Source: an uncultured Clostridia bacterium (GTDB lineage: Bacteria > Bacillota > Clostridia > TANB77 > UBA1234). From it: a stretch of 64,000 nt of DNA. Positions 1-31,325 of the stretch are shown one piece after another (positions within the stretch are counted from its first letter, which is position 1; each line of letters opens with the position of its first letter). The position numbers and the translations under genes are program-made. The notes below the pieces were generated by a model that was not told where the DNA came from, ran no database searches, and saw only the letters and a program-made list of their open reading frames with translations. The stretch is from assembly GCA_934132775.1 (NCBI GenBank), contig CAKPAA010000009.1:7682-71681 (forward strand), read 5' to 3'.

Positions 1-1008
1 CCAGAAATAGAGCCATTTTTAAGAGAGTTCGGAATAAACTATGTTTTACTAGAAACACATGGTATAACTTTTGCAAATCCAAAGCCACTTTATGGAACAT
101 TAGCACCAATAATTTCTCCTAATGGATTAGTTGCCTTCGGTAGAGACTTAGAGAGTTCAAAACAAGTGTGGAGTTCAATTTGCGGTTATCCAGGTGATCC
201 AAATTATAGAGAATTTTATAAAGACATTGGATATGAACTAGATTGGGATTATATAAAACCTTACGTATCAAAGTCTGGTCATAGAGTTGACACAGGAATA
301 AAGTATCACAAAATAACTGGCAAAACGCCGTATAAAGAATACTACAATGACAGCAATGCCAAAGCTGTTGCTGAACTTCAAGCAGATCACTTTATAAAGT
401 CAAGAATTGAACAAATTGAAAAAACCGCACCAAAAATGAAAAATCCGCCAATAATAACTTGTCCATACGATGCTGAACTTTACGGTCACTGGTGGTATGA
501 AGGACCTTACTGGTTATATGTATTATTCAAAAAAATATATTATAATCAAGACGTGTTCAAGCTTATAACACCTAGCGAATATTTAGATAAATACCCTGAC
601 ACTCAACAAGCCGCACCAGCAATATCAACTTGGGGTGCACACGGATATAGTGAAGTTTGGTTGAACCCTGGCAATGACTATATTTATAGGCACTTAGATA
701 ATGCAGCTGGAAGATTACATTATCTAGCGCAAACGTATAAAGAGCCTTATGACTTGCAAAAAAGAGCATTAAATCAGTGTGCAAGAGAATTATTACTTGC
801 CCAAAGCAGTGATTGGCCATTTATAATAACAGCAAACACAATGGTTGACTATGCTCATAAGCGTATAAGAGACCACATCGGCAGATTCAATGCACTAGCT
901 GATATGATAGATAAAAATGAAATTAACGAAGAATATTTAGCAGATATTGAATATAAAGACTTAATCTTTCCAGATATCGATTATCGCATCTGGGGCTGGG
1001 GAGAGTAA
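1..1008 (+). CDS. GH57-family alpha-glucan branching enzyme / DUF1957 protein, C-terminal part; the gene starts upstream of the window
   Basis: Frame 1 is open from base 1 (PEIEPFLREF...) and joins the listed ORF at 166. C-terminal region is typical of GH57/DUF1957 glucan-processing proteins. glgP lies nearby in a glycogen context. Confidence 0.7.
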   Translation, partial: PEIEPFLREFGINYVLLETHGITFANPKPLYGTLAPIISPNGLVAFGRDLESSKQVWSSICGYPGDPNYREFYKDIGYELDWDYIKPYVSKSGHRVDTGIKYHKITGKTPYKEYYNDSNAKAVAELQADHFIKSRIEQIEKTAPKMKNPPIITCPYDAELYGHWWYEGPYWLYVLFKKIYYNQDVFKLITPSEYLDKYPDTQQAAPAISTWGAHGYSEVWLNPGNDYIYRHLDNAAGRLHYLAQTYKEPYDLQKRALNQCARELLLAQSSDWPFIITANTMVDYAHKRIRDHIGRFNALADMIDKNEINEEYLADIEYKDLIFPDIDYRIWGWGE

Positions 1009-1156
1009 GAGAACTAAATGGCACTTTTTCAGCTATTGCCAAGCAAAATTTAATTCTTGCTAAGTTTTAAAATATACGATATAATGTATATTGATAAAGG
1101 AAATATGCAGAGCGGTTGACCTCCTGCTTTCATTTTATAATGTTCGAGAGGAGGTG

Positions 1157-1261
1157 ATGCATTTGGTACAAAATGATTATATATTTGATGTAATCTTAGT
1201 TGTAATACTTAGCATCCTCTTGAAGAGACTAATCGGGTACTTTAAGAGCACAAAAAAATAA
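1157..1261 (+). CDS. candidate 34-aa hydrophobic peptide (MHLVQNDYIFDVILVVILSILLKRLIGYFKSTKK), type I toxin-like small ORF
   Basis: Strong SD AGAGGAGGTG sits immediately 5' of ATG 1157. One predicted TM helix with a basic tail. An upstream anti-SD CCTCCT (1120-1125) can sequester the SD. An 11-nt perfect 5'/3' complement flanks the ORF (1111-1121 with 1304-1314). A hairpin follows the stop (1260-1289). Confidence 0.3.
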   Translation: MHLVQNDYIFDVILVVILSILLKRLIGYFKSTKK

Positions 1262-1395
1262 TCGCCCTGTCTTGACCGAATAGGCGATTAAAAACGATTA
1301 CTTGGTCAACCGCTTAATGCGGAATTCCTTTATCTGTATTTATTTTAATATATTTTATGTAAAAAGTCAATTATTATACAATATTTTTATCAAAA

Positions 1396-1440
1396 GACCT
1401 GCTATCACACTTTAAATAGCAGGTCCTTTTTTATTATTTA
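1396..1440. terminator. bidirectional rho-independent terminator-like hairpin between convergent genes
   Basis: Stem gacctgctat...atagcaggtc with a T-run on the plus strand and an A-run on the other side. It lies just 3' of the minus-strand giant gene stop at 1434. Confidence 0.45.
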
Positions 1441-4400
1441 CTTATCTCTTTAAATAACTTTTGTGCTGTTTTTCTTGTTCTTCCATCTGGTATTTTTGCA
1501 ATAGCATTTTCAACAGTTGTTTGTTGTTGAGGTGTTAATAACCTCATTATTGCATCTAACTCATTTCTTTGTCCTGCTGTCATTGTGTTTATCTTGTTAA
1601 ATAGCTTTATCGCTTGATTTGGCAACATATTTGTAACTAATACAATTACTTCGTTTGAAAGTTTGGCTTTTGCTTCTGGATCTTTAAAGTAATCATCTTT
1701 TACTGTTGTTCTTGCTCTGTAATAGTTGTCTAGCATTGCTTTTTCGTATATTGATATTACTTTTAGTTTCATTAGTTCTGCATCGTATTCTTTTGCATTT
1801 GCTATCTTTTCATTGATACATTCTAATTCTTTTTCTGTCTTTCCTCTTTCAACTATATATGTTGCTTGCTCTAAATTTGATGTCGTTTTTCCAACAAAGA
1901 AATCTGCAAATATTATTGATTTCTTTTGTTGTAAAAAGTCAAAATCTTTATCATGTAGCTCTGATGCTGTAATTGCTTCAAATACTTGCAATATTTTATT
2001 ACCAGTTCTATCTTCGCTAATTATATCTGCAAGTTTATTTTGTGCAAGTTCTTTTTCTTTACGCATTATAGTATTTAGCTTCTCTTCTAACTCATTTACC
2101 GTTGCACCTTGTGTGCTTAACGCCTCTCGTAATAATTTTACTATTTGTGTGTTATAGTCATTTAATGTGTTAATAGCTTCTTTTTGCTCATTTGTTAAAA
2201 TTATGTTTCTCTCTAATTTTTGTAAGTGCTCATCTGTAAACTTGAATTCTTGTGCCTCCTGTTGCTCTCTTATTTCTTCTTGTTGTTTTTCAAGTTCAAT
2301 TTTTGCCTCTTCTTCTTTTTGTGCTTGTTCAACTAATTCTTGATCAACAAACTTAGCAACATCAGGGTTGTAATATGGTTTATCCTTATCTTCTTGCTCA
2401 ACTTTAGTATCGTTTGTGTAATATTGAATTATTACGTTTTCTTCAATATTTTCTGAGACAATTATATCATTTGGTGAATTATACGCATATCTCCACATAT
2501 TATTGTTATCATCGTATATAACTCTGTTTGCAGGTTTTGGATTATATTTGCTTCCAATTTGCATTTTTGCCTTTATATCACTCTTTAAAGGTTCACCATC
2601 CGTCGTTTGTATCTTAACAGTTGTCATTGCCTTCTTTTCCATATAAACTACATTTATTATATTATTTATACTTCCAACTGTTAATTTAACTGGTGTTACA
2701 GAACTATATATCCATTTTCTACCGTCGACTCCAACAAGTTCTGCTTCTGGTTTTGGAATAAATTCCTTACCTATCTCCATATGGAATATATCTGGTTCTT
2801 TAATTGTGTTTCCATCAACATTCTTATATCTAACGGATATTTCTGCTTTCGCCACTTCATAAACCATTGTTATAAAGTTATCTTTTTCATTTTCTTTAAC
2901 CCTTAATGAGTCTACTTTGTCCGTAATTAGTTCCCACTGTATTCCGTCTCTATCCTTAATATATTGAATTGCACTTGGTGCATAAACTGTTCCAACCTGT
3001 AATTGTTCAACTTGATCATCTTTCAATTTATTTCCATCAACGTCTTTAAACATTATTCCCGCATTGCTGTAAACAGCTTCATACGTTAATGTAAATACAT
3101 TTATAGGCTCTGTTGCACCAACTGGTAATTCTTTAATTTTAATACTTTCAGGCTCGCACTTTACAAACTTGAACAACATCGATTCACTATCTGTAATTGT
3201 GTTATCTATATTAAGTTTATATACACTGCCTAACTGTGCCTTCACGGTTTTGTTTGGAATAATTGTCCTACCCTTTAAGTTAACGAATTTTACAAGCACA
3301 TCAACATTCAACGGTGTGTAAATTGTTTCAACTATATTCTTGCTATCGTCATCATCAATTTTGATTTCATCTGCACTCTTTTTCTTAAATTCCCAAACTC
3401 TATCATCTGCACCAGTTACAATATTCTCAGGTTCTGTAATATATATGCTACCTATTTGTTCAAGAAGTTTTCTTGGCTGTTGTAGTTTATTACCATATTC
3501 ATCTTTGTAGACATATGTTACAGTTGCTTTTTGCTCTTCGTAAGCTAGGTTAATAGCATTTTGCTTAGGGTCCTTACTAATCTTTATAGTTGAATTACTA
3601 TTTGGGTTGTATACCCACTTAACATTACCAGAACCAACAATTTTATTTATAATATCAGGTGTATACATACTGCCTATTTGAGCTTCTGTTTCAAGCATAG
3701 GTCTTATTTCAGTTCCAAGCGGATCAATATATCTAATAACAACCTTATTCATTGATTTTTTATATCTAAGTTTAATTACGTTTTTCTCTTCTTTGTCTGA
3801 AACAATAATTGGTTCAACCTTTTTGCCTGTTGTAAAGAATTTATTTTCTACTCTCAATGCATAAATCCATTCTTTACCTTCTTCATCCTCAATATAATCT
3901 TCAATTTTAGGCATAAACGCTGTACCAACTTGTTCTTTTGTTATGCTAGGTTTTATTATTTCTTCACCTTTATCATCAACAAATTGAACTGGAACATTTA
4001 CTAAATACTTGTCATAATTTATATTTACATTATTTTCACTTGGATTTCTATTTACCTTAAATTTAGGTATTAAGCTTTCATTAACAATCCAGCCAAACTT
4101 CTTAGAATCTAGCACTATTTTTTCAGGTGTTGGAATATATATGCTTCCTATTTGTGCCTTAACTATTTCTGCTCCCTTAATCATTTCCATAGCATTACCA
4201 AAGAAAGATAATTTCAAGTCTACTAATTCTTTCTTGTAAGTTATATTTATAACATTATTTTCAGCTATTTCAGTAACTTTAATCTTATTTGTGTCAATAG
4301 CCTTAAATAGCCAAGCTTTACCTTCCTTATCTTCGTAAGCATTTTTTATCTCCGCCTCAAATGTTGTTCCAACCTGAATTTGCGAAATTATTGGCTCTGC

Positions 4401-7400
4401 AATTAAATTTCCATCTTCATCTTTATAATTAACCGTAACATTAGCAAGCAATTTATGATATTCATAAATCACAATATTTCCTTGCTCCTTAACTATTAGT
4501 TCACTCTTAGAAACAACTTCATAATACCACATAAATCCATTTGCATCAGTGATTTTTTCTTCAATTTCAGGCACAAACTTTTTACCAACTTGCATAATAA
4601 CTTTCTTTGCAGGGATTATTTCTTTTTCTTCTTCATTTACGTACTGTTTAACAATCTCAGCATTTAAAGGTTCGTAATAGTTAGTAATTATATTATCATC
4701 TTCAAGCACATATTTATTTTCAATTTTAGAATTTTTGTATTTCCAACCAAGACCTTTGTTATCATTAAATTTTTGAATAGCATTAAGTGTAATCTCTTTT
4801 CCGACTTGAAGTTCAATTGTTGTATCTTCCTTTATTTGCTCATCATTTAGATTTCTATATTTTGAAATCACTTTGCTTTTAACTTCATCATACGTCAAAA
4901 CAATAATGTTTTCTTGCTCATTTTCCTTTGTGACAATAGACATATTTTCATCGCCAATATATTTCCACTTCCACTTATTTTTATCTAATATTGTTTGTCT
5001 AATATTAGGCACGAATATTCCACCAAGTTTAACTGTAGAAACAACATCTTCAACAAACGTTTTTTGAGTGTTTACATCTACGTGTCTAACAAGTACTTTT
5101 GCTTTTATTTCGCCATAAATAAGTTTAAATACATTATCGCCATCACGCACTGTACGGTTCTTTGGCTCACTATCTTCAAGCATCCATCTACCACCAGCTG
5201 TGTCTGTTATTTTATAGAATAAATTATCTTCAAGTTGTGCACCAATTTGAGATTCAATCTCTTGCGGTTCTCTAAGTTTATTTCCATACGCATCAACAAA
5301 AGTCAATTTTACTTTTGCATTTTCTTTATCATAATATATAGAAATAAGATTTTCTTCTTCATATTTTTTAACAACAATACTTGGGATCTTATTTTCATCT
5401 AGAATCCATTTTTTGCCCGTTGAATCAGTTATTTTCCTTATAGGCACATTCTTATATTCAGAACCAACTTGTACCATTTCATACTTAGGTTCAAGAAGTT
5501 CTCCCATTTCTGTGTTATAATACTTTATCGTAACCTTAGACAATAAAGGTTCATATTTTAATGTAACAACATTTTTAGTTTCAGACCTCGAAACAACAAC
5601 GCCTTCGCCTTTTTCTTTACATACCCAAGACTTTCCAAAGTTATCTAAAATTTCATTCTTTTTGTCAGCATTATAAACATCACCAACTTGTGCATCTTCA
5701 AATATCACATCTTTAATAGGTCTATCGTTCATATTTAATAGCTTAATCATAACTTTTGATAACCTTGGTTTATAAACTGCAACAAGTATATTTTTGCTTT
5801 CGTCTTTATCAACTACAATTTCATTCTTTTTAACATTTGATAATATCCACTCTTTAAGACTAAAATCGGTTAATTCTTTATCAAATTCAGTAGAAAATGT
5901 TTTACCAATTTGAACGAAATCAATCTTATCGTCTGCCAATTTTATGTTAGATTCACTAACAATTCTCGTAATAACTTTTTGCTTTGCCTCTTCATACATC
6001 ATCGTTATAACATTAGGTGTATCATTATTAACCATAACGCTTGCAGACGAAGTCTCTATATAATTCCATCCAAGATTATTGCCATCAACAATATATGGTA
6101 CACTCTCCGCAGTATATAATTTTGCAACAGGAGCTTGAACTAATTTATTTGGGGCTAGTTCAATTCCAGTGTTAGTTAGGAACCTAATTGTAACATCAGC
6201 CTTCTCTATATCATACACTAGCAAAACTTTATTCTTATCATCAGAATCTTTTACCACAAGCTTAGCAGGTCTAGAAAAAAGTAACTTCCAGTCATCGCCG
6301 TTTTTGTCTTTATAAATTGCTTTGCTTTCTAAATCATAATTTGAACCAACTTGTACTATCTCTTGTCTATCATCGGCAAGTTTCTTGCCGTCTCTGTTAA
6401 TATAAGAAAATGTTACTCTTGCAAATCTTTCATCATATTTTAACTCTATAACATTTTGTTCAGGGTCCTCATTAAGCAAAAATGGTGTTATATCTTTTGA
6501 AGATATTACCCACTCTTTTCCCTCCTTATCATTTATAACAGGTATCATCTCAGGAAGATATGGTGTTCTTGGGAATACGTTCCCAACCTTATTTTCTTTT
6601 AATATCTCGCCCTTTGAATTTAAGTATTTTACAGTAACATATGTTGAACCTGGTAAAACCTGATTGCTTCCTATAACGTAAGCTGATTCATTAACCTCAT
6701 TAAACAAATTCTTTTTAGAAGAATTTGCTATTGTAGACTCCAAGCTAGTTCCATTAAACATACTAATTGAACCACTTCCACCTTGAATTTTAGGAATATA
6801 AAAATCAACTTCAATATTAGGAACAGGAAGTCCATCCGTGCCATAATATTTCATATCTTCATAAATATATCCTAGCAAGTCTGGAATACCAGTTATATCA
6901 ATAAACGTTTCTCTCCTAATTATAATTGCAGGAGCACTAACATTAAAATCTGCGACTGTTTGCTTTCTGACAAGCATACCATCTTCATCAGTATATTCAA
7001 GCTTGTTTCCTATCGTTGTCAAATCATCTAAAACGTTTTCAACAAGATTATATTTATATCTTTTTGAAACATTATCAGCTATTGTTATATAAAGCATTTC
7101 CTCAAATTCAGTTGGATCTGTTATAACCTTATATTTATATTTTATAGGTTCTATCAAGTCACTCTTATTAGCCAAATTATCTCTAATAATGCTAATAGAC
7201 GGAAACATAAGCTCGAAATTTAATTTTTTCAATGCAGTTTCAAGCTTTTCTTTGCTTATATCAACATTAGAGTCTCTTCTAAATTTTCTACTTAAATCAT
7301 CTGCAAGCTCACTAATTCTAGGATCTTCTCTTCTAAACTCTGAAAACATAGCTTGGCTGTAAACCCTAGGTGCAATAAAAATAGCAATTTCTTCAACGTT

Positions 7401-8213
7401 TCCACTTCTTAAAAACCAATAATAAGAAATAGTATTAAGCGGAAAATCGGCCTCTGGTGGCATTTTATCTAACTTAACATATGGATCGTTAGTTATCATT
7501 CCAGGTTGAACATTTTTAGAAGACCTTCTTATTCTAGCTTTTTTATTCAATACCTCAATTCTATTGCTTCTTAGATTTATAAATCTCAAAGAATATGAAT
7601 ATAAATTCTCTGCATATTTTGTTTCATTATCATACATCTTAATTCTTGGATTAAGCCCATTAACAGCCATATCATCAATAACATAGTCTGAAACTAGCAT
7701 GGTCAAAATTTCTTTAATTTTTCTTTCAGGAACTCTGCCATTATCTAGAAAAGCTTCGTAATAATCATTTACAATTTCGTCTCTTTCTCTTTTGAAAGTC
7801 TGCTCATACTTTATACCATTATACATAGTTTGAATCTTAGGATTTGGCTTATAAATCATAATCTTCATTTTAAAGTCACCTGTCATAGCAATGAGCGCAC
7901 ATCTCTTTGACAAAGTATAGTCGGCCGTTACAAATTTTGTTCCAATAGATGTATCAGCCGTCGAAGTTGTAATATCTCCCTCTAAAACTTCAACTTGCAA
8001 AACATCATATTTAATATTCAAAAATAATTCAATTATCTCAACTGTTGGCTCGTCAAATTCATCAATATCAACAACATTTTCATACTCAGACTCATCTGTT
8101 ATCCTTTTTTCAATAAGTCCTAAATCAAATTTTCTCAAAATAGTGCTAGAAATATTGTCATTATAGCCCAACATGCTAAGCTTGTCTTCAAGTACACTTA
8201 GAACTGTTTTCAT
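1434..8213 (-). CDS. giant (~2259 aa) repeat protein: ~570-aa unique N-terminal domain, >20 MucBP-like ~75-aa beta-sandwich repeats, C-terminal coiled-coil/unknown domain; no signal peptide or LPXTG seen
   Basis: Single uninterrupted ORF. Likely start is MKTVLS at 8213, preceded by RBS AGGGGTGA. The repeat pattern V.V.Y.D..G..L......Q.G..Y......I.D..G..W recurs through the body. Confidence 0.7.
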   Translation of the reverse strand: MKTVLSVLEDKLSMLGYNDNISSTILRKFDLGLIEKRITDESEYENVVDIDEFDEPTVEIIELFLNIKYDVLQVEVLEGDITTSTADTSIGTKFVTADYTLSKRCALIAMTGDFKMKIMIYKPNPKIQTMYNGIKYEQTFKRERDEIVNDYYEAFLDNGRVPERKIKEILTMLVSDYVIDDMAVNGLNPRIKMYDNETKYAENLYSYSLRFINLRSNRIEVLNKKARIRRSSKNVQPGMITNDPYVKLDKMPPEADFPLNTISYYWFLRSGNVEEIAIFIAPRVYSQAMFSEFRREDPRISELADDLSRKFRRDSNVDISKEKLETALKKLNFELMFPSISIIRDNLANKSDLIEPIKYKYKVITDPTEFEEMLYITIADNVSKRYKYNLVENVLDDLTTIGNKLEYTDEDGMLVRKQTVADFNVSAPAIIIRRETFIDITGIPDLLGYIYEDMKYYGTDGLPVPNIEVDFYIPKIQGGSGSISMFNGTSLESTIANSSKKNLFNEVNESAYVIGSNQVLPGSTYVTVKYLNSKGEILKENKVGNVFPRTPYLPEMIPVINDKEGKEWVISSKDITPFLLNEDPEQNVIELKYDERFARVTFSYINRDGKKLADDRQEIVQVGSNYDLESKAIYKDKNGDDWKLLFSRPAKLVVKDSDDKNKVLLVYDIEKADVTIRFLTNTGIELAPNKLVQAPVAKLYTAESVPYIVDGNNLGWNYIETSSASVMVNNDTPNVITMMYEEAKQKVITRIVSESNIKLADDKIDFVQIGKTFSTEFDKELTDFSLKEWILSNVKKNEIVVDKDESKNILVAVYKPRLSKVMIKLLNMNDRPIKDVIFEDAQVGDVYNADKKNEILDNFGKSWVCKEKGEGVVVSRSETKNVVTLKYEPLLSKVTIKYYNTEMGELLEPKYEMVQVGSEYKNVPIRKITDSTGKKWILDENKIPSIVVKKYEEENLISIYYDKENAKVKLTFVDAYGNKLREPQEIESQIGAQLEDNLFYKITDTAGGRWMLEDSEPKNRTVRDGDNVFKLIYGEIKAKVLVRHVDVNTQKTFVEDVVSTVKLGGIFVPNIRQTILDKNKWKWKYIGDENMSIVTKENEQENIIVLTYDEVKSKVISKYRNLNDEQIKEDTTIELQVGKEITLNAIQKFNDNKGLGWKYKNSKIENKYVLEDDNIITNYYEPLNAEIVKQYVNEEEKEIIPAKKVIMQVGKKFVPEIEEKITDANGFMWYYEVVSKSELIVKEQGNIVIYEYHKLLANVTVNYKDEDGNLIAEPIISQIQVGTTFEAEIKNAYEDKEGKAWLFKAIDTNKIKVTEIAENNVINITYKKELVDLKLSFFGNAMEMIKGAEIVKAQIGSIYIPTPEKIVLDSKKFGWIVNESLIPKFKVNRNPSENNVNINYDKYLVNVPVQFVDDKGEEIIKPSITKEQVGTAFMPKIEDYIEDEEGKEWIYALRVENKFFTTGKKVEPIIVSDKEEKNVIKLRYKKSMNKVVIRYIDPLGTEIRPMLETEAQIGSMYTPDIINKIVGSGNVKWVYNPNSNSTIKISKDPKQNAINLAYEEQKATVTYVYKDEYGNKLQQPRKLLEQIGSIYITEPENIVTGADDRVWEFKKKSADEIKIDDDDSKNIVETIYTPLNVDVLVKFVNLKGRTIIPNKTVKAQLGSVYKLNIDNTITDSESMLFKFVKCEPESIKIKELPVGATEPINVFTLTYEAVYSNAGIMFKDVDGNKLKDDQVEQLQVGTVYAPSAIQYIKDRDGIQWELITDKVDSLRVKENEKDNFITMVYEVAKAEISVRYKNVDGNTIKEPDIFHMEIGKEFIPKPEAELVGVDGRKWIYSSVTPVKLTVGSINNIINVVYMEKKAMTTVKIQTTDGEPLKSDIKAKMQIGSKYNPKPANRVIYDDNNNMWRYAYNSPNDIIVSENIEENVIIQYYTNDTKVEQEDKDKPYYNPDVAKFVDQELVEQAQKEEEAKIELEKQQEEIREQQEAQEFKFTDEHLQKLERNIILTNEQKEAINTLNDYNTQIVKLLREALSTQGATVNELEEKLNTIMRKEKELAQNKLADIISEDRTGNKILQVFEAITASELHDKDFDFLQQKKSIIFADFFVGKTTSNLEQATYIVERGKTEKELECINEKIANAKEYDAELMKLKVISIYEKAMLDNYYRARTTVKDDYFKDPEAKAKLSNEVIVLVTNMLPNQAIKLFNKINTMTAGQRNELDAIMRLLTPQQQTTVENAIAKIPDGRTRKTAQKLFKEISK

Positions 8214-8453
8214 TTGTTCACCCCTAATAAGAAAACAGAAAATTTCAATTTCTGATTTCCGATTTTTGTGAGCTAAAAATCTCACCCTAAATTATTTTTT
8301 ACATCTATATCAATTATACATTAACGAATATTTTTTTCAATAGTTTTACATTCAAACTCTACCATTTATTTTCATTTTGAATAATATATAATGTGTATAT
8401 TTTTTCAAATTTATACAAACACTATGTTAAGTCAAAATTAGGAGCGTGCTAGG

Positions 8454-8993
8454 TTGAATCCAAAATTTATAATTATTAAAATACATTCAAAATCTTTTTA
8501 TAAAATGTTAGTTAGGGAACTAATCAATTATAAAAGAATAAATTTTTATCATAAAAAAATCAATGGCGTATACACCATTATAATAAAATGTCAAGCTTAT
8601 TACGAAAACATTGCTGGCAAAAAGTTAGAGCAAAGTATTTATTTAAGCTATATTTATCTATATACCAGCATTTCTCTAATCATTTCAGAACTTATAATTA
8701 GATTTTTTGAAAATAAAATTGCTTATCAGATATTAGCCTCAAAATATAACTTCTTGCCACCATATGACATAGAAAAAATGTCAAACATAATTAGTGTAGT
8801 TTTAGATTCAAATTTTCCGTCTATTGAATCTAAAAAATTATATCTATATCGCAAAGATTTAATTTTAAACAAACTACTTTTAAATTTCAGAAAAAAGAAC
8901 TATATATATGCTGATTATTTCGTGTATTTTAAGCTCGAAGATTATCACGAACATCTTGAAACTATCATTGAAAAAACATATTCTCGTTATTGA
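8454..8993 (+). CDS. hypothetical protein (179 aa), AT-rich, no recognisable domain
   Basis: ORF only; low complexity. Its stop overlaps the -35 box of the glgP promoter. Confidence 0.3.
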   Translation: MNPKFIIIKIHSKSFYKMLVRELINYKRINFYHKKINGVYTIIIKCQAYYENIAGKKLEQSIYLSYIYLYTSISLIISELIIRFFENKIAYQILASKYNFLPPYDIEKMSNIISVVLDSNFPSIESKKLYLYRKDLILNKLLLNFRKKNYIYADYFVYFKLEDYHEHLETIIEKTYSRY

Positions 8994-9018
8994 CATTAAG
9001 TTTCAAGTATTAGATAAT
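8990..9018 (+). promoter_or_regulatory. sigma-A-like promoter for glgP (TTGACA-N17-GATAAT)
   Basis: TTGACA at 8990-8995, a 17-nt spacer, GATAAT at 9013-9018, about 40 nt upstream of the glgP start. Confidence 0.4.
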
Positions 9019-9058
9019 AATGGTATGTATGAACTTATGATAAAAGGAGGAATTTTGA

Positions 9059-11620
9059 GTGTATTTATTCGGAAAAATTACTGTAAAACCACAATTACCT
9101 GAAAGGATTTCGTATTTGTCCAACATAGCAAATAATTTATGGTGGTCTTGGAACACAAACGCGTTACGTTTGTACGATTATATTGATCCAGTTTTGTTTG
9201 CAAAGGTTGGTAAGAATCCAGTAAAATTCCTTTCGAGAATAAATCAAAAAAGATTAGTTGAAGTTTCAAATGATGCAGACTTTTTAAAAGACTACGATTT
9301 AATCGTAGATAATTTTAAATCATACTTAACAACTGAGGATACATATTACAATTCTCATTTTCCAAATAATAAAAATGATGTAATTGCATATTTTTCTGCC
9401 GAGTATGGAATCGATGAAATATTGCCAATTTACGCAGGCGGTCTTGGAATATTATCTGGTGATCATTGCAAATCTGCAAGTGATTTAGGCATACCATTTG
9501 TGCCAATAGGTTTACTATATAAGCAAGGATATTTCCATCAACTTATAAACAAGGACGGCAGTGAAATGTTCGACTACTCCCCTACTTCAATTGAAGATCT
9601 ACCAATAATTCCCGTACTCGATGAAAATGGAAATGATTTAATAATTTCTGTTGAATTTCCAGGAAGAATTGTATATTTAAAAATTTGGAGTATAGACATA
9701 GGAAGAATTAAATTGTACCTTATGGATAGTGATATAAACCTAAATGCACCAACAGATAGAGGGTTAACTCTAAAGCTATATGGTGGTAACCAAGAAATGA
9801 GAATATCTCAGGAAATAATTCTTGGAATCGGTGGAATGACACTTCTTAAAACATTAGGAATATCACCATCATTATATCATATGAATGAAGGACACTCTTC
9901 ATTTGTAACACTAGAAGTAATTAAAAAATTTATGCACGAAAAAAATATATCATTTGATGTTGCAAAAAAGCTTGCTTCAACTTGCACAGTATTTACAACA
10001 CACACTCCAGTTCCTGCTGGAAATGATATATTTCCAATAGATTTAATGGATAGATATTTTTCAAACTACTATAATGAGTTAGGAATAAGCAGAAATGATT
10101 TTCTAAACTTAGGACTAAAAAAAGAAAATGTGCTATCTGACGGTTTCAATATGGCAGTGCTTGCATTAAAAATCGCTGGTGGCAGAAATGGTGTTAGTAA
10201 ACTTCATGGCGAAGTTTCAAGAGGATTATTCTCAGAATTGTGGCCTGAGACAGCTTCTGACGAAGTGCCAATAGATTACGTAACAAACGGAATACACACA
10301 GGCACTTGGCTTGCGCCAACATTAAAAGACTTATACAACGCATATATGCGTCCATTATGGCAAGAAAAACTTTATGATGCAGAAGTTTGGAACGATATAG
10401 ATAATATTCCAGACGACGAACTTTGGAATGCACATATGGTTCAAAAAAATAAGTTAGGTAACCTAATTAGAAAAAATATAAAAGCACAAAAAATGAGACA
10501 CGGAGCATCAATCGAAGAGTTAAATGAAATAGATAAATTGTTTAATCCAGATGTTTTAACAATAGGATTTGCAAGAAGATTTGCAACATATAAACGTGCA
10601 GACTTAATATTTAAAGACCTAGAAAGAATAACAAAGATTATGAACGATCCTAATAGACCTGTGCAAATAGTATTTGCTGGTAAGCCACACCCTGCTGATA
10701 TTCAAGGTCAGGACCTAGTAAAAAGAATTTATGAAATATCTGAAATGCCACAATTTAAAGGAAAAGTTTTCATACTAGAAAACTATAATATGGCAATAGC
10801 TAGATATTTAGTAAGTGGTGTAGATGTTTGGCTTAATAACCCACGTCGTCCACTAGAAGCAAGTGGAACAAGTGGTGAAAAAGCAGGAGTAAACGGAGTT
10901 ATAAACTTCAGCATACTAGATGGTTGGTGGTTCGAAGGATATGATGGAAACAATGGTTGGGCAATTGGAGATGACACTGAGTACACTAACTATGAATTAC
11001 AAGATAATGCAGACTCTCAAAGCATTTACGATATTCTTGAAAACGAAATCATACCGCTATATTACTCAAAAGGCGAAGAAAAATTAAATACAAAATGGAT
11101 TAAAAAGATGAAAGCATCAATAAAAACAGTCGGCGGTGTTTATAATACAGGTAGAATGTTAGTCGACTACCTAAACAAACTATATATGCCACAGGTAAAC
11201 AGATTCGATAATTTAAAAGACAACACAAATAAAATAAAAGATTATTTGGCTTGGGAACAAGATACAAGAACAAAATGGTATCAAATAAAAATAACACCAA
11301 CAACCGAATTAGACGATTTAATAGTTGGTGCAGGAAACAATATAAAAATGAAATGTGATGTATTTTTAAATGGAATTGATCCAAATAGTGTAATGGTAGA
11401 AGTATACTGTGGAAAACTTGACGAACAAGGCAAAATGGTAGATAGTATATGTTCAGAAATGACGCTATCAAACACAATTGGAGAATCAACTTATGAATAT
11501 TCAAGCGATTTAGTGATAGACGACGGTGGAAATTATGGCTACACATTTAGAGTCTTACCAAAACACGAACTAATTATTAACAAACAAGACTTATCATTAT
11601 GCAAATGGCTAACAAACTAA
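9059..11620 (+). CDS. glgP: alpha-glucan phosphorylase (GT35, maltodextrin/glycogen phosphorylase-like with DUF3417 N-terminus)
   Basis: 853-aa ORF. The N-terminus LSNIANNLWWSWN and the body are characteristic of the alpha-glucan phosphorylase family. Confidence 0.85.
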   Translation: MYLFGKITVKPQLPERISYLSNIANNLWWSWNTNALRLYDYIDPVLFAKVGKNPVKFLSRINQKRLVEVSNDADFLKDYDLIVDNFKSYLTTEDTYYNSHFPNNKNDVIAYFSAEYGIDEILPIYAGGLGILSGDHCKSASDLGIPFVPIGLLYKQGYFHQLINKDGSEMFDYSPTSIEDLPIIPVLDENGNDLIISVEFPGRIVYLKIWSIDIGRIKLYLMDSDINLNAPTDRGLTLKLYGGNQEMRISQEIILGIGGMTLLKTLGISPSLYHMNEGHSSFVTLEVIKKFMHEKNISFDVAKKLASTCTVFTTHTPVPAGNDIFPIDLMDRYFSNYYNELGISRNDFLNLGLKKENVLSDGFNMAVLALKIAGGRNGVSKLHGEVSRGLFSELWPETASDEVPIDYVTNGIHTGTWLAPTLKDLYNAYMRPLWQEKLYDAEVWNDIDNIPDDELWNAHMVQKNKLGNLIRKNIKAQKMRHGASIEELNEIDKLFNPDVLTIGFARRFATYKRADLIFKDLERITKIMNDPNRPVQIVFAGKPHPADIQGQDLVKRIYEISEMPQFKGKVFILENYNMAIARYLVSGVDVWLNNPRRPLEASGTSGEKAGVNGVINFSILDGWWFEGYDGNNGWAIGDDTEYTNYELQDNADSQSIYDILENEIIPLYYSKGEEKLNTKWIKKMKASIKTVGGVYNTGRMLVDYLNKLYMPQVNRFDNLKDNTNKIKDYLAWEQDTRTKWYQIKITPTTELDDLIVGAGNNIKMKCDVFLNGIDPNSVMVEVYCGKLDEQGKMVDSICSEMTLSNTIGESTYEYSSDLVIDDGGNYGYTFRVLPKHELIINKQDLSLCKWLTN

Positions 11621-11697
11621 CACATCTTCGTGGATAACTAAATGGTTTATAGGTAAATCCAAGAAAAAACTAATATAAATTTATAAAAAGAAAGGAG

Positions 11698-13182
11698 ATG
11701 TATGCTGTATTTAAAGTGTTAAATATGGTATACAAAGAAAAAATGAAACGCACAAAAATCGTATGTACTTTAGGACCAGCTGTTGATGATGCTGCAACAC
11801 TTGCAAGAGTTTGCACTGCCGGAATGGATGTTGCAAGATTTAATTTTTCACACGGCGACTACTTAGATCAACAAAAAAGAATAGACTTGTTTAAAAGTGT
11901 AAGAGATGAATTAAAATTACCAATAGCAATGATGCTAGACACAAAAGGTCCAGAAATAAGAATAGGCACTTTTAAAAACGGAGAAGCGTATATAAAAGAT
12001 GGGGCACACTTTACTTTAATGCACGATAACTGCGATGGAGACGAAGAAAAAGTATATGTAAATTACGAAACTTTATATGCAGAAGTAATACCAGGTGCAA
12101 CAATACTAATAAATGATGGAATAATAGAACTAAAAGTAGAAGAAATAAAAGATAAAAACATAGTATGCTTAGTTACACACGGTGGAAAATTAACAAATAG
12201 AAAAAGTGTAAATATACCAGGATTATCACTAAATTTTCCTCTAATGACCGAAAAAGATAAAGCGGACATCACATTTGGAGTTGAAAATAACTTCGATATA
12301 ATCGCAGCATCATTCGTTAGAAAAGCGGATGATATACTAGCAATCAAAAACTTACTAAAAGACTTGAACGCACCACAAATAAGCATCATAGCCAAAATAG
12401 AAAACCAAGAAGGCGTAGACAACTTCGATGAGATACTAGATGTAGCAGACGGAATAATGGTAGCACGTGGAGATTTAGGCGTTGAAATACCAATGGAAAA
12501 AGTTCCATCAATACAAAAAATGTTCATTAGAAAATGTAACGAAAAAGGAAAAATAGTAATAGTAGCAACACAAATGTTAGAGTCAATGACAACATCGCCA
12601 AGACCAACAAGAGCCGAAGTAAACGACGTAGCAAATGCAGTATATGACGGAGCAACAGCAGTAATGCTTTCAGGCGAAGTTGCAGCAGGAAACTTCCCAG
12701 TTGAATGTGTAAAAATGATGCACCAAATAACAAAAACAGTCGAGAATGAAATAGACTATTGGGGCAACTTCTGCAAATTCGACGACAAAACATTGATAGG
12801 AAACAAAAACAACTTAATAGTTGGACATTCACTATGCGAACTTGCAATGCAATCAAATGCAAAAGCAATCTTCTCGCTATCATCAGGAGGCCACACACCA
12901 CAAGCAATAGCATCATTTAAGCCAAAATGTCCAATATTTGCAATAACACCAAACATATCAACAGCAAGAAGATTAAATGCAGTTTGGAATGTAACTCCAA
13001 TAGTAGTTGAAGAAAAAGAAACAGAAGTTGAAATGATAAAAGAGGGCTTAGAATACGCAAAAGAAAACAACTACATCTTCGATGACGATATAGTTGTAAT
13101 TGGCGAAAGCGACACATACACAAGATCTAATTTACTAGGTGCAAAGCATACTAAAAAAGTTGGAGGAATATATCAACTATAA
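11698..13182 (+). CDS. pyk: pyruvate kinase (no C-terminal PEP-utilizer domain)
   Basis: MKRTKIVCTLGP...MLDTKGPEIR motifs. The true start may be ATG 11743, because the RBS abuts ATG 11698. Confidence 0.9.
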   Translation: MYAVFKVLNMVYKEKMKRTKIVCTLGPAVDDAATLARVCTAGMDVARFNFSHGDYLDQQKRIDLFKSVRDELKLPIAMMLDTKGPEIRIGTFKNGEAYIKDGAHFTLMHDNCDGDEEKVYVNYETLYAEVIPGATILINDGIIELKVEEIKDKNIVCLVTHGGKLTNRKSVNIPGLSLNFPLMTEKDKADITFGVENNFDIIAASFVRKADDILAIKNLLKDLNAPQISIIAKIENQEGVDNFDEILDVADGIMVARGDLGVEIPMEKVPSIQKMFIRKCNEKGKIVIVATQMLESMTTSPRPTRAEVNDVANAVYDGATAVMLSGEVAAGNFPVECVKMMHQITKTVENEIDYWGNFCKFDDKTLIGNKNNLIVGHSLCELAMQSNAKAIFSLSSGGHTPQAIASFKPKCPIFAITPNISTARRLNAVWNVTPIVVEEKETEVEMIKEGLEYAKENNYIFDDDIVVIGESDTYTRSNLLGAKHTKKVGGIYQL

Positions 13183-13323
13183 AAGAGTTAACGGCACTAT
13201 GAACATCTCTCTCCTAAAATTAAGTTGCTCTCAAAGTTAATAATAATGTATGTAGAAATTTTTTAATAGTTTCAAATGACTGTAAAGAAATAAGCTTTAC
13301 AGTCATTTTTGTTAATTTAAACA

Positions 13324-14553
13324 TTATCTTTCATCTAGTAACCAATCTAATGCATTTATTTTCTTTATGCCATCAAAATCAGCATCTAAATCTTCATCTA
13401 ATGTCAATATATATTTAGGGTAATTATCGTTTATTTTTTTCAAAGGTGCTAATTCTCTCTCTAAAATTTTATTATCGTCTTCACTTCTTGTTGTTAAAGC
13501 CACTTGGTAATATTCAGTATTTTCAGGCTTTTTAGCAACGAAATCAACTTCTAAATCATCGTACTTTCCTATATACACATCATAGCCTCGTCTCAAGAGC
13601 TCCAAATAAATAATATTTTCTAATATGTGTCCCATATCTTTACCAGATTCTTGACCAAGCATATAATATCTAAGTCCAATATCAACAGCATAATACTTCT
13701 CTTGTGTTTTTAAAAATTCCTTTCCTTTTATATCATATCTGCTGGCCCTAAATATTAAATAACTATCGATTAAAGCTTCAACATAATTGGATATCGTATT
13801 ATACGAATAATTTTTGTCTATCCCTTCTAAATTATTACTTATACCTTTCAAACTTGTTCTATTTCCAATATTATCATAAAGATATTTAGCTGTTCTTTCC
13901 AGCATAGTTTTATCAGTTATACCCTTTCTTTGCATTACATCTTTGAATAAGACAGTATTATATATTCCATCCAAAAACATTTTTATATTTTCTGGATTGA
14001 TTCTATACAATTCAACAGCTTGTGGAAACGAGCTATATCTCAAATAATTTCTAAATTTTCTTGAAATGTCCGTTTTATCATTAAAACTTGACATATACTC
14101 TTTAAAAGACAAAGGCAACATCTTTATTTCAATGTATCTTCCTGTTAATAATGTGGCTAATTCTGACGATAACAGATACGCATTCGAGCCTGTTATATAC
14201 AAGTCAACATCTTTATTTATAAATAAGCTATCCACTGTTTTTTCAAATTCTTTTACATTCTGTATCTCATCTAAAAAAACATATGTTTTTTTACCTTTAA
14301 CCAACTTACTTTTTATATACTTATATAATTCTTTTCTATCTTGAAGCTCCTCATAATCAGCATCTTCAAAATTTATAGATATTATCTGTTCACCAGATAT
14401 TCCGTTGTCTTTCAAATAATCTTGAAAAATTTCCAGTAAAGTAGATTTTCCGCACCTTCTTATACCAGTAATAACTTTTATTATTTGTTGGTCTTTAAAG
14501 TTTTTCAGTATGTTCAAATAATTGTCTCTCTGTATTCTCTCCATAAACACCAC
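13324..14553 (-). CDS. AAA+ ATP-binding protein with DUF4143 (COG1373 family)
   Basis: Walker A GIRRCGKST near the N-terminus and a 409-aa length typical of this family. Confidence 0.8.
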   Translation of the reverse strand: MVFMERIQRDNYLNILKNFKDQQIIKVITGIRRCGKSTLLEIFQDYLKDNGISGEQIISINFEDADYEELQDRKELYKYIKSKLVKGKKTYVFLDEIQNVKEFEKTVDSLFINKDVDLYITGSNAYLLSSELATLLTGRYIEIKMLPLSFKEYMSSFNDKTDISRKFRNYLRYSSFPQAVELYRINPENIKMFLDGIYNTVLFKDVMQRKGITDKTMLERTAKYLYDNIGNRTSLKGISNNLEGIDKNYSYNTISNYVEALIDSYLIFRASRYDIKGKEFLKTQEKYYAVDIGLRYYMLGQESGKDMGHILENIIYLELLRRGYDVYIGKYDDLEVDFVAKKPENTEYYQVALTTRSEDDNKILERELAPLKKINDNYPKYILTLDEDLDADFDGIKKINALDWLLDER

Positions 14554-14782
14554 TCCTATCTACATTTATTATAATATATTATAATAATATATTCAAGTTT
14601 TTTCAAAATTTTGAAAAAACTTCTGATTTTCGCATACTTTTTTCATTGCTTTGAAAAAACTTTTAGTTATTACCTACTTTTTATTTTTTAATAAACCTTC
14701 ATTTTCTATACAAATAAGCAAAAAGAAAGAGTATCTTTTAGCAAAATGTTGTTAAAAGTACTCTTTCTTTAATTTCAGTATT

Positions 14783-24379: not shown

Positions 24380-24974
24380 TACAAACTCTCCCTTCAAAGT
24401 TTATTCAATAAAAAATGTGTGCTAATAACAAATTTTAAATCTATCAAATTATTTCTTTAAATATTGCATTTAAAAAATATCAACATTACTTATGAAAATT
24501 ATAGTCTGAAGTTAAGACTTTGTAAACACACGCACGCGTGCATATATAGTAATAAGTAGGGTTTGAAAGATTTGCTAAGACTAAAAGCACTTACGGAAGT
24601 ACTTTTTAACATATTAACACTATAAATAAATTGAATTGAATATTAAATTTGTGTTACTATTTTGTTACAAATTAGTTACAAGATATGTAATGCTTTTGTA
24701 ATATTTAATACAAATTTGTATTTCCGTAGGTTATTCATTTGATCTAAATATTTTTATTTTGAATAAATTGGAATTTTAAATACAGATATAAAAATAAAGT
24801 CTACGTATATTGATTTTTCATATACATAGACTCTAAATTATTTTCATTCAATAATAATTTAAAATAATATTCTATTTTATTCTTAGTTAATCCTTTAATT
24901 CTGTTAATTATTTTTTCATTTTAATTATATTTTTAATACGTACAACTACTGATTTTTGGCATTACCTGCCTATT

Positions 24975-25862: not shown

Positions 25863-25938
25863 TGGTGCCTATTCGCGGAATCGAACCACGGACACAGGGA
25901 TTTTCAGTCCCTTGCTCTACCAACTGAGCTAAATAGGC
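25863..25938 (-). tRNA. tRNA-Phe (GAA)
   Basis: Reverse complement folds as a cloverleaf. Acceptor GCCTATT/AATAGGC, anticodon loop CTGAAAA, TTCGATT T-loop, CCA encoded. Confidence 0.9.
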
Positions 25939-25988
25939 ATATATTAAATTCCTCTATAAAATAAAAATAACCATTTCATAAAATAAAA

Positions 25989-26065
25989 TGGCGACCTGAA
26001 AGGGGCTCGAACCCTCGACCTCTAGCGTGACAGGCTAGCGCTCTAACCAACTGAGCTATCAGGCC
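25989..26065 (-). tRNA. tRNA-Asp (GTC)
   Basis: Reverse complement GGCCTGATAGCTCAGTTGGTTAGAGCG..., anticodon loop CTGTCAC, CCA encoded, 77 nt. Confidence 0.9.
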
Positions 26066-26117
26066 GTATACATTGCATAGCTTAATGTATTAAAGCCTGC
26101 AGTTCTTAAATAAAAAG

Positions 26118-26193
26118 TGGTGGGCACTATAGGGCTCGAACCTATGACCTCCTGCTTGTAAGGCAGATGCTCTCCCAGCTGAGCTAAGCGCCC
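26118..26193 (-). tRNA. tRNA-Val (TAC)
   Basis: Reverse complement GGGCGCTTAGCTCAGCTGGGAGAGCATCTGCCTTACAAGCAGGAGGTC..., anticodon loop CTTACAA, CCA encoded. Confidence 0.9.
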
Positions 26194-31249: not shown

Positions 31250-31325
31250 TGGTTGCGAGGGCTGGACTCGAACCAGCGACCTCCGGGTTATGAGCCCGAC
31301 GAGCTGCCAACTGCTCTACCTCGCG
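31250..31325 (-). tRNA. initiator tRNA-fMet (CAT)
   Basis: Reverse complement CGCGAGGTAGAGCAG...TCGTCGGGCTCATAACCCGGAGGTC...CGCAACCA. C1:A72 mismatch. Three G-C pairs in the anticodon stem. Confidence 0.9.

What the first reader, a model, noticed from the sequence alone, without database searches (positions are those of the whole stretch)
1434..8213. 2259-aa MucBP-like repeat protein with no signal peptide, no TM and no cell-wall anchor
More than 20 tandem ~75-aa beta-sandwich repeats typical of surface adhesins. The protein begins MKTVLSVLEDKLSMLGY... with no hydrophobic leader. It has a ~570-aa unique N-terminal domain and a C-terminal coiled-coil plus unknown domain. This implies either a non-classical export route or an intracellular giant repeat protein. 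Both are unusual.
Basis: partly seen in the sequence, partly recalled or inferred. Interest (0 to 1): 0.55.

Follow-up and report, generated by a model that had tools for sequence, protein, structure and literature searches.

The report
Leaderless giant MucBP-repeat rod protein
A real, conserved 260-kDa protein of uncultured gut Clostridia carries 19 adhesin-type repeats but no export signal; its gene always lies inside the glycogen gene cluster, while shorter relatives lie inside type VII secretion loci, so it is either a new kind of type VII cargo or a giant intracellular scaffold.

Summary
The ORF is real: window 1434-8213, minus strand, 2259 aa, with a conserved ATG and RBS. The details need correcting. 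There are exactly 19 MucBP-type repeats (aa 526-1933), a 525-aa N-terminal domain (NTD) and a 326-aa all-helical C-terminal domain (CTD). No signal peptide, TM segment or LPXTG was found in this protein or in about 25 homologs.

NTD and CTD match no Pfam or NCBIfam family and no PDB fold. An exhaustive profile search of 1.84 billion proteins found only 36 NTD relatives, all from this family, which is confined to ~30% GC uncultured gut Clostridia.

- All 21 full-length long forms (35-77% identity) have exactly 19 repeats, mostly with 5-residue linkers. The repeats are ancient (27% identical to each other).
- The gene always sits between ytxC-glgP-pyk and GH57 branching enzyme-DUF4912-glgA, behind a conserved sigma-A-type promoter.
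- Short paralogs (3-7 repeats, no CTD) sit in T7SSb loci, directly after essC and an EsaB-like gene or next to a WXG100 gene.

Best reading: a T7SS-exported, fixed-length surface fibre (0.4). Main rival: a cytoplasmic glycogen-associated scaffold (0.3). I could not test whether the window genome has a T7SS.

The parts
8313..8340 (-). Sigma-A-type promoter: TTGAAA, 16-nt spacer, TATAAT (11 of 12 matches)
   Evidence: Top hit of the promoter scan. The same TTGAAA-N16/17-TATAAT element lies 51-127 nt upstream of the start codon in 14 of 15 orthologous loci, so it is conserved rather than an AT-rich chance match.
8219..8225 (-). Ribosome-binding site AGGGGTG, upstream of the ATG
   Evidence: A GAGGTG/GGGGTG-type site is conserved in nearly all orthologs (weaker in L010).
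1434..8213 (-). Coding sequence of the 2259-aa protein (260 kDa, pI 5.1, 4 Cys); stop codon at 1434-1436
   Evidence: The exact protein recurs on 7 metagenomic contigs.
6639..8213 (-). N-terminal domain (NTD), aa 1-525; mixed alpha/beta; family-specific
   Evidence: No Pfam hit even at E<=10. An exhaustive profile search found only 36 relatives in 1.84e9 proteins, all from the same family. In the AF2 model, aa 1-210 have pLDDT 80-92, 250-350 are moderate and 357-525 are poor. No PDB or BFVD fold match.
2415..6638 (-). 19 tandem MucBP-type repeats (aa 526-1933), ~69 aa each, mostly with 5-aa linkers
   Evidence: The number is invariant in 21 full-length long-form homologs. Repeat i pairs best with repeat i of orthologs.
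2253..2342 (-).
   Evidence: AF2 helix at residues 25-54 of the CTD model, pLDDT 57-75.
1437..2414 (-). C-terminal region (CTD), aa 1934-2259; the globular all-alpha domain starts at about aa 1995
   Evidence: AF2 pLDDT 85.7, pTM 0.77. No Pfam family reaches its threshold (three sub-threshold matches, best E=0.0058). No PDB fold match: best E=0.3, TM<=0.25. The word-indexed search found only 2 homologous fragments. The CTD is absent from the short paralogs.
8454..8993 (+). Divergently transcribed YtxC-like gene, first gene of the ytxC-glgP-pyk unit
   Evidence: Pfam YtxC E=8.8e-12. Found in this position in most long-form loci.
9059..11620 (+). Alpha-glucan phosphorylase (DUF3417 + Phosphorylase domains)
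   Evidence: Syntenic in every long-form locus with upstream flank.
11698..13182 (+). Pyruvate kinase
   Evidence: Recognised from the translation and by the precomputed Pfam PK and PK_C hits on the identical gene in L035. Syntenic in the long-form loci.
166..1008 (+). 3' part of the GH57 1,4-alpha-glucan branching enzyme gene, convergent with the giant gene; cut by the window start
   Evidence: Pfam BE_C E=2.9e-38. The full 530-aa gene, followed by DUF4912 and glycogen synthase, is seen on contigs that carry the identical giant protein.

Best explanation
The gene encodes a genuine, vertically inherited, strongly expressed 260-kDa rod-shaped protein. It has a family-specific 525-aa N-terminal domain, a fixed array of 19 ancient MucBP-type modules, one long charged helix and a novel ~270-aa all-helical C-terminal domain. 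It has no Sec, Tat, lipoprotein, TM or sortase signal.

The most likely mechanism is as follows. The protein is made and folded in the cytoplasm. It leaves the cell through a T7SSb-type machine (EssC ATPase, WXG100 protein, EsaB/YukD-like protein), which does not use N-terminal leader peptides. Outside the cell it acts as a fixed-length surface fibre or adhesin. At an assumed ~4 nm per module, 19 modules would give roughly 70-90 nm. One terminal domain would hold it on the cell and the other would be displayed.

Shown: the anatomy, the absence of classical signals, conservation of the start codon and promoter, the invariant repeat number, the synteny, and the T7SS embedding of the short paralogs.

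Inferred: that the long form itself is a T7SS substrate, that the shared NTD is the element recognised, the rod geometry, and the adhesin role.
For: 1. No classical export or anchor signal in the window protein or in about 25 homologs, with start codon and RBS conserved.
2. Short-form paralogs share the NTD (30-33% identity, tblastn E about 1e-65 to 1e-69) and have 3-7 of the same repeats. They lie inside T7SSb loci in two different arrangements.
   - L016-L018: 1341-aa protein, 204-aa WXG100 protein, EssC, 85-aa EsaB-like protein, short form.
   - L020: EsaB-like, short form, WXG100 protein, homolog of the 1341-aa protein.
   - L019: short form, WXG100 protein (53% identical to L016's), weak YwqH-like protein, further unknown genes.
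3. The EssC call is secure: TIGR03928 at 961 bits against a cutoff of 778. The WXG100 call passes TIGR03930 at 48.8 against 44.85.
4. In related T7SS loci, the slot after the essC and EsaB-like genes holds other, variable genes: YkuD-domain proteins, a 302-aa protein, or an integrase. A TNT-domain toxin gene lies upstream of essC in L038. This is the position and behaviour of cargo, not of core components.
5. Published surveys state that T7SS substrates are often encoded next to the locus and that T7SS can recognise C-terminal as well as N-terminal targeting domains (PMC11217815, PMC10730906).
6. MucBP modules are otherwise typical of extracellular Gram-positive proteins (Pfam PF06458; my own knowledge).
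7. A near-consensus sigma-A promoter conserved in 14 of 15 loci points to vegetative expression.
Against: - No EssC, WXG100 or EsaB homolog occurs in the 64-kb window or within 10 kb of any long-form ortholog (tblastn at 1e-3).
- Six EssC look-ups found no assembly that holds both EssC and a long form.
- The NTD is mixed alpha/beta, not the helical LXG/WXG100-type targeting domain of all characterised T7SS substrates.
- The CTD is a compact helical domain with no similarity to the WXG100 partner (hhalign probability 0.1%).
- T7SS cargo genes are usually variable and mobile. This gene has kept one chromosomal position, inside the glycogen cluster, across homologs down to ~35% identity.
- Its amino-acid composition resembles the cytoplasmic proteins of the window (30% charged, 27% T+S+N+G+A). 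The Sec-anchored surface giant next door has 22% and 40%.
Confidence: 0.4

Rival explanations
1. An intracellular giant scaffold or ruler tied to glycogen (granulose) metabolism. The protein stays in the cytoplasm. Its 19 beta-grasp modules bind alpha-glucan multivalently, or space the enzymes, and the terminal domains dock glycogen enzymes or the membrane. In this way it would organise or size polyglucan granules.
For: - The gene lies between ytxC-glgP-pyk and GH57 branching enzyme-DUF4912-glgA in every long-form locus with enough flank: the window plus 15 other distinct loci, with NTD identity down to ~35%.
- This placement persists where DUF4912 and GH57 are inverted (L008, L009, L011) and while the outer flanks differ between loci.
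- It shares a divergent intergenic region with the glgP operon.
- It has no export signal.
- Its composition is cytoplasm-like.
- The repeat number is invariant and the repeats are positionally orthologous. That fits a structural ruler better than a typical adhesin.
- MucBP modules occur in Ruminococcus bromii pullulanases, including Amy11 (CBM48-GH13-MucBP x3), which is listed without a signal peptide (PMC5814915).
Against: - No CBM or starch-binding family is detected.
- No alpha-glucan binding has been shown for any MucBP module. The profile hit to R. bromii Amy10 is only E=0.95.
- The synteny could be inherited inertia: the gene is its own transcription unit, convergent with glgB and divergent from glgP.
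- No cre or Spo0A box is conserved upstream.
- The paralogs are in T7SS loci, not glycogen loci.
- The protein diverges faster (41-77% identity) than the adjacent enzymes (67-90%).
Confidence: 0.3
2. A spore-surface or sporulation-associated fibre. It would be synthesised in the mother cell, where no signal peptide is needed, and assembled on the forespore as an appendage or adhesin.
For: - The hosts encode sporulation genes: SpoIIE and SpoIVA near orthologs, a YtxC-like neighbour, and SpoIIR near related T7SS loci.
- Leaderless repeat proteins are normal on spore surfaces (my own knowledge).
- Granulose metabolism is linked to clostridial sporulation (my own knowledge).
Against: - The conserved promoter is a near-consensus sigma-A type (TTGAAA-N16-TATAAT) in 14 of 15 loci. 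No sigma-E or sigma-K -10 motif is conserved.
- There is no similarity to known coat or exosporium families.
Confidence: 0.08
3. The protein is released by some other non-classical route, such as holin- or lysis-dependent release as in large clostridial toxins, or an unknown dedicated exporter. It would then act extracellularly.
For: The protein is leaderless, with a large unique N-terminal domain followed by a repeat array. This superficially recalls TcdA and TcdB (my own knowledge).
Against: - No glucosyltransferase, protease or CROP families are detected.
- No holin or endolysin genes are adjacent.
- There is no phage or plasmid context.
Confidence: 0.1
4. An annotation artefact: a wrong start that hides a signal peptide, or a decaying pseudogene.
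For: One ortholog (L001-L004) is split by a frameshift into 333 + 1949 aa.
Against: - An in-frame stop lies 26 codons upstream, and start and RBS are conserved across the orthologs examined.
- The reading frame is intact at 2227-2326 aa in 22 homologs, the 21 whose repeats were counted plus L023.
- The promoter is conserved.
Confidence: 0.02

Closest known systems
Sec/sortase-dependent MucBP adhesins of Lactobacillales and Listeria (Mub-type proteins, MucBP-containing internalins)
   Same: Tandem ~70-aa MucBP (PF06458) modules form a long repeat array. The Pfam match is above threshold.
   Different: There is no signal peptide, YSIRK motif or LPXTG anchor. The repeat count is fixed at 19 across species and the repeats are only 27% identical to each other. 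The terminal domains are unrelated to any known family. The host is an uncultured gut Clostridia lineage.
[quoted passage not shown]
   Same: The protein is leaderless. Paralogs are encoded directly after the essC and EsaB-like genes and next to WXG100-family genes. Large modular leaderless proteins sit in the same loci.
   Different: No LXG, WXG100 or other helical targeting domain is detectable. The body is beta-rich rather than a toxin domain. There is no immunity-gene cassette. The long form is encoded far from any T7SS gene seen.
MucBP modules of Ruminococcus bromii pullulanases (Amy10, Amy11, Amy12)
   Same: MucBP modules in proteins of alpha-glucan metabolism in gut Clostridia. Amy11 is listed without a signal peptide (PMC5814915, PMC9112005).
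   Different: Those are GH13 enzymes with 1-3 MucBP modules plus CBM26 or CBM48. Here there is no catalytic or CBM domain and there are 19 modules. The sequence link is marginal (E=0.95 to PDB 9qf8).
Fixed-length rod or ruler proteins (for example EsaA/YueB stalks of T7SSb, tape-measure-like rulers); a comparison of function only
   Same: Invariant module number and near-constant linker length across deep divergence suggest selection on physical length.
   Different: There is no TM segment, unlike EsaA/YueB, and no sequence or fold similarity.

Membership tests
MucBP domain family (Pfam PF06458) | Sequence match to the MucBP profile above the gathering threshold | tested here: met
   98.7 bits against a cutoff of 23, E=3.3e-28. 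Only 2 of the 19 repeats pass individually, so the repeats are divergent members.
Sec/sortase-anchored Gram-positive surface adhesins | N-terminal Sec signal peptide | tested here: not met
   The N-terminus MKTVLSVLEDKLSMLGY has acidic residues at positions 9-10. The whole-protein maximum KD19 is 1.13. The start is conserved across the orthologs examined and there is an upstream in-frame stop. This is heuristic; SignalP was not available.
Sec/sortase-anchored Gram-positive surface adhesins | C-terminal LPXTG sortase motif plus a hydrophobic, charged tail | tested here: not met
   No LP.T[GAN] motif in the window protein or in 10 homologs. The C-terminus is a soluble helical domain.
T7SSb substrates (LXG/WXG100-type) | Helical LXG/WXG100-like targeting domain at the N- or C-terminus | tested here: not met
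   No Pfam or NCBIfam LXG or WXG100 hit on NTD or CTD even at E<=10. The NTD model is mixed alpha/beta. CTD against the locus WXG100 protein gives hhalign probability 0.1%.
T7SSb substrates (LXG/WXG100-type) | Gene encoded at or next to a T7SS locus or small WXG100/Lap genes | tested here: inconclusive
   Not met for the window gene or any long form within 10 kb. Met for the short paralogs in L016-L018, L019 and L020.
T7SSb substrates (LXG/WXG100-type) | A T7SS (EssC) present in the same genome, and secretion dependent on it | not testable with these tools
   Only 64 kb of the genome is available. EssC homologs at 53-60% identity are abundant in ~28-30% GC metagenomic contigs. None could be assigned to a long-form assembly.
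Carbohydrate-binding modules for alpha-glucans (CBM20/26/48 and similar) | Profile match to a starch- or glycogen-binding module | tested here: not met
   Pfam reports only MucBP for the full protein. Nothing relevant matches NTD or CTD.
Large clostridial toxins (leaderless; N-terminal enzyme plus repeats) | GT44 glucosyltransferase, cysteine protease domain, CROP repeats | tested here: not met
   No such Pfam hits. No PDB fold match for the NTD.
Spore coat or exosporium proteins | Mother-cell (sigma-E or sigma-K) promoter | tested here: not met
   The conserved upstream element is sigma-A type. Sigma-E or sigma-K -10 motifs occur only sporadically. This is a motif scan only.

The most novel reading that the evidence does not exclude
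The protein never leaves the cytoplasm. It would be a fixed-length multivalent scaffold of roughly 70-90 nm that organises or sizes glycogen/granulose granules. That would explain why it is locked inside the glycogen synthesis and degradation gene cluster across a whole lineage of gut Clostridia, and it would be the first dedicated structural protein of bacterial polyglucan granules. Its short paralogs would then be a secondary recruitment of the same module set as T7SS cargo.
Probability: 0.25. Interest if true: 0.85.

Novelty: new variant of a known kind. Interest (0 to 1): 0.62.

Why it matters
Either outcome would be new.

If the protein is T7SS cargo, it would be a beta-rich, 260-kDa, adhesin-like substrate with no helical LXG/WXG100 targeting domain. 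That would widen what T7SSb machines are thought to export, from small helical proteins and toxins to surface fibres. It would also define a new targeting element.

If the protein is cytoplasmic, it would be a giant ruler-like protein of glycogen granules, and adhesin-type MucBP modules would have an intracellular role.

In both cases the invariant 19-module array stands out. Adhesin repeat arrays normally expand, contract and homogenise; this one is ancient, non-homogenised and fixed, which argues for selection on physical length.

The family also shows that two confidently foldable domains (NTD aa 1-210 and the CTD) can be confined to one uncultured gut lineage and be invisible to all current family libraries.

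Tried and rejected
- **Mobile-element origin.** Megablast of window 1-20000 against plasmids and phages found no match. PHROGs gave no hit. The neighbours are housekeeping genes. Rejected.
- **Hidden signal peptide by start correction.** Rejected.
- **Sequence searches against PDB.** The repeat region gave nothing. The repeat profile gave only E=0.95 to R. bromii Amy10.
- **CTD as a fused equivalent of the 204-aa WXG100 partner of the short forms.** hhalign probability 0.1%. Rejected.
- **T7SS genes in the window or in long-form loci.** None by tblastn.
- **Finding EssC and a long form in one assembly.** Six EssC look-ups gave EssC in CALXQV01, CANRBL01 and CANRCM01 and in ENA samples. None is among the 12 long-form MAG assemblies found in NCBI, so co-occurrence is unresolved.
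- **Regulatory motifs.** No conserved cre or Spo0A box upstream. No Rfam element in the leader.
- **Literature.** No paper links T7SS with MucBP-repeat proteins, or DUF4912 with glycogen.
- **Evolutionary rate as a localisation clue.** Uninformative: the adjacent DUF4912 (42-57% identity to the reference copy) and YtxC-like proteins also diverge quickly.

Full report

The ORF lies on the minus strand, 1434..8213, and encodes 2259 aa. Its ATG is preceded by AGGGGTG. An in-frame stop lies 26 codons upstream. The only longer reading, from GTG 8285, adds 24 non-hydrophobic residues.

Across the orthologous loci examined, the same MK[TI]/MNT start is conserved, and nearly all have a GAGGTG-type RBS. 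The leaderless N-terminus is therefore not a start-codon error.

Pfam assigns MucBP to the whole protein (E=3.3e-28, 98.7 bits against a cutoff of 23). An iterated self-HMM resolves exactly 19 repeats at aa 526-1933, each about 69 aa, mostly joined by 5-residue linkers. That leaves a 525-aa N-terminal domain (NTD) and a 326-aa C-terminal region (CTD).

The highest 19-residue Kyte-Doolittle mean anywhere in the protein is 1.13. There is no LPXTG, no lipobox (first Cys at residue 105) and no twin-arginine motif. The protein is acidic (pI 5.1) and weighs 260 kDa.

It is off in three numbers: 19 repeats rather than more than 20, 525 aa rather than ~570, and 326 aa rather than ~400.

**2. What is it made of?**

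NTD and CTD have no Pfam family at threshold. The full protein has no NCBIfam or PHROGs hit.

The word-indexed search of 5.8 billion clusters found 8 relatives of the NTD and 2 of the CTD. The exhaustive HMMER profile search of 1.84 billion representatives found 36 NTD matches. All are full-length family members or fragments of them. The domains are therefore confined to this family.

AlphaFold2 gives a confident mixed alpha/beta structure for NTD residues 1-210 (pLDDT 80-92). Residues 250-350 are moderate and 357-525 are poor. The CTD model is confident (pLDDT 85.7, pTM 0.77). It shows a disordered linker, one ~30-residue charged helix and a compact bundle of about 14 helices.

**3. Who has it, and what is conserved?**

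A scan of GTDB species representatives returned 11 loci. All are MAGs of uncultured Clostridia or Eubacteriales from human, Hadza, rabbit and roe-deer gut. Contig look-ups and a metagenome scan added more. GC content is 26-33% throughout.

Three properties are strikingly constant.

- **(a) Length and repeat number.** Full-length long forms are 2227-2326 aa. All 21 in which repeats were counted have exactly 19, mostly with 5-residue linkers, at whole-protein identities of 35-77%.
- **(b) Repeat history.** The repeats are ancient and not homogenised. Mean identity within the protein is 27%. Repeat i of the window protein matches repeat i of an ortholog best in 19 of 19 cases for the closest ortholog, falling to 11 of 19 for the most distant one tested. 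There is no DNA-level repeat. The Sec-anchored 3204-aa surface protein 6.5 kb away behaves differently: it has four ~1.95-kb DNA repeats at 76-92% identity.
- **(c) Position.** In the window and in all 15 other distinct long-form loci with usable flanks, the gene lies between pyk-glgP-(ytxC), transcribed divergently, and GH57 branching enzyme-DUF4912-glgA. This holds where DUF4912-GH57 is inverted and while the outer flanks differ between loci.

A TTGAAA-N16/17-TATAAT promoter is conserved 51-127 nt upstream of the start in 14 of 15 loci. No cre box, Spo0A box, or sigma-E/K motif is conserved. No Rfam element lies in the leader.

**4. The unexpected lead: short paralogs in T7SS loci.**

The exhaustive search also recovered a monophyletic clade of short forms. 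They have an NTD 30-33% identical to the window's, only 3-7 repeats, and end 3-12 residues after the last repeat. They have no CTD.

Their gene neighbourhoods are as follows.

| Locus | Gene order |
|---|---|
| L016-L018 | 1341-aa leaderless protein, 204-aa WXG100 protein, EssC, 85-aa EsaB-like protein, short form, then rimP-nusA-infB |
| L020 | EsaB-like, short form, WXG100 protein, homolog of the 1341-aa protein |
| L019 | short form, WXG100 protein (53% identical to L016's), weak YwqH-like, unknown proteins |

The 1341-aa protein has PT repeats and a C-terminal WXG100-like domain.

EssC passes the equivalog model TIGR03928 (961 bits against a cutoff of 778). The 204-aa protein passes TIGR03930. 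The EsaB/YukD assignment of the 85-aa protein rests only on its size, its position and my reading of its sequence; it has no Pfam hit.

EssC homologs at 53-60% identity are numerous in contigs of the same GC content. In those loci the slot after the essC and EsaB-like genes holds different genes: YkuD-domain proteins, a 302-aa protein, an integrase or a WXG100 gene. A TNT-domain toxin gene lies upstream of essC in L038. That is how cargo regions behave.

The published survey of T7SS variants makes three relevant points. Substrates are commonly encoded beside the locus. Small WXG100-like partners accompany them. Both N- and C-terminal targeting domains occur (PMC11217815, PMC10730906). No paper in the library links T7SS with MucBP-repeat proteins.

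**5. Weighing the mechanisms.**

T7SS export explains the central puzzle, which is adhesin-type modules without any leader. It is backed by a non-random genomic association of the paralogs. I therefore rank it first.

It is not established for the long form, for these reasons.

- No T7SS gene lies in the window or within 10 kb of any long form.
- I could not show that any long-form genome has essC.
- The NTD is not a helical LXG/WXG100-type domain.
- The CTD is unrelated to the WXG100 partner.

The main rival is a cytoplasmic glycogen- or granulose-associated scaffold. In its favour are the invariant location in the glycogen cluster, the ruler-like invariance of the array and a cytoplasm-like composition: 30% charged and 27% T+S+N+G+A, against 22% and 40% for the neighbouring Sec-anchored giant. 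There is also the precedent of MucBP modules in R. bromii pullulanases, one of which is listed without a signal peptide (PMC5814915). Against it, no glucan-binding module is detected, no MucBP module is known to bind alpha-glucan, and the synteny may be inherited inertia.

A spore-surface role is disfavoured by the conserved sigma-A-type promoter. A toxin-like or lysis-release route has no supporting feature. Artefact is excluded by the comparative data.

**6. Comparison with known families.**

The repeat modules are members of Pfam MucBP. The protein as a whole is not a Sec/sortase adhesin, because both defining signals were tested and are absent.

It cannot be filed as an LXG/WXG100-type T7SS substrate. 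The targeting domain was tested and is absent, the locus criterion is met only by the paralogs, and dependence on a T7SS is untestable here.

It is best described as a new, lineage-restricted variant of MucBP-repeat fibrillar proteins. It has two novel terminal domains and a non-classical, unresolved localisation.

**7. Verdict.**

The finding is real and more interesting than first described. The repeat array is fixed and ancient. The terminal domains are orphans. The family has two sharply different and individually conserved genomic contexts: the glycogen cluster for long forms and T7SS loci for short forms.

- Interest: 0.62.
- Novelty: new variant of a known kind.
- Confidence in T7SS-dependent export of a fixed-length surface fibre: 0.4.
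- Confidence in an intracellular glycogen-associated scaffold: 0.3.

Noticed in passing
window 14783-24397 (minus strand): A second giant ORF of 3204 aa. It has an N-terminal TM anchor (MKLNERKRILLISITVSLVIVVLGSII). It contains four ~1.95-kb DNA-level repeats (76-92% identity), each encoding Cys-rich CxxC modules. No Pfam family reaches threshold; only a sub-threshold SCAB-Ig hit appears. It looks like a conventional, recently homogenised surface protein of unknown family.
   Followed up: partly
L001-L004, about 10001-16838 (for example L001 10960-11002): The ortholog in MAG GCA_964572605.1 is split by a 1-nt frameshift inside the NTD into 333-aa and 1949-aa ORFs that overlap by 14 nt. The identical split occurs on 9 contigs from several samples. 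It is therefore a real mutation, not an assembly error. The gene may be a pseudogene or a two-chain version.
   Followed up: partly
window 8226-8312 (minus strand): The window gene has a ~100-nt leader, with the promoter element starting 127 nt upstream of the ATG. Most orthologs have it at 51-80 nt. The extra stretch contains a small hairpin (GTGAG-N9-CTCAC). No Rfam family matches.
   Followed up: partly
L016 20-4045; also L020 3560-4675: A 1341-aa leaderless protein sits in the T7SS locus. It has about 400 aa of Pro-Thr dipeptide repeats. Its C-terminal ~170 aa are 26% identical to the 204-aa WXG100 protein. It is a candidate 'reverse-orientation' T7SS substrate with a huge PT linker.
   Followed up: no
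L016 4136-4750, L019 4884-5498, L020 2783-3397, L025 7135-7749, L031 2389-3003, L037 and L038: The T7SS loci of this uncultured lineage share a conserved 204-aa protein. Its first ~90 residues match the WXG100 profile, and the rest appears helical. One locus carries up to three copies (L037). An 83-88-aa protein overlaps or directly follows the end of essC, and I take it to be EsaB/YukD-like.
   Followed up: partly
window 44976-50840 (minus strand): A cluster encoding a T2SSE-family ATPase, a TadZ/ParA-like AAA_31 protein and a TraG-P-loop/DUF87 ATPase. A distant homolog of the last one (25% identity) lies a few kb downstream of a T7SS locus in L028, beside TrbC-like pilins.
   Followed up: no
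window 8454-8993 (plus strand): The YtxC-like protein is only 179 aa and matches only the first half of the Pfam YtxC model (positions 3-110 of 218). It heads the glgP-pyk unit in most long-form loci.
   Followed up: no
window 25866-26193 and 31253-31325 (minus strand): Four tRNA genes: three clustered and one separate.
   Followed up: no
window 166-1008 and L035 17206-21012: DUF4912 is always paired with the GH57 branching enzyme next to glgA in these genomes. It diverges fast (42-57% identity to the reference copy in L001). The searched paper library holds no paper that mentions DUF4912 together with glycogen.
   Followed up: no
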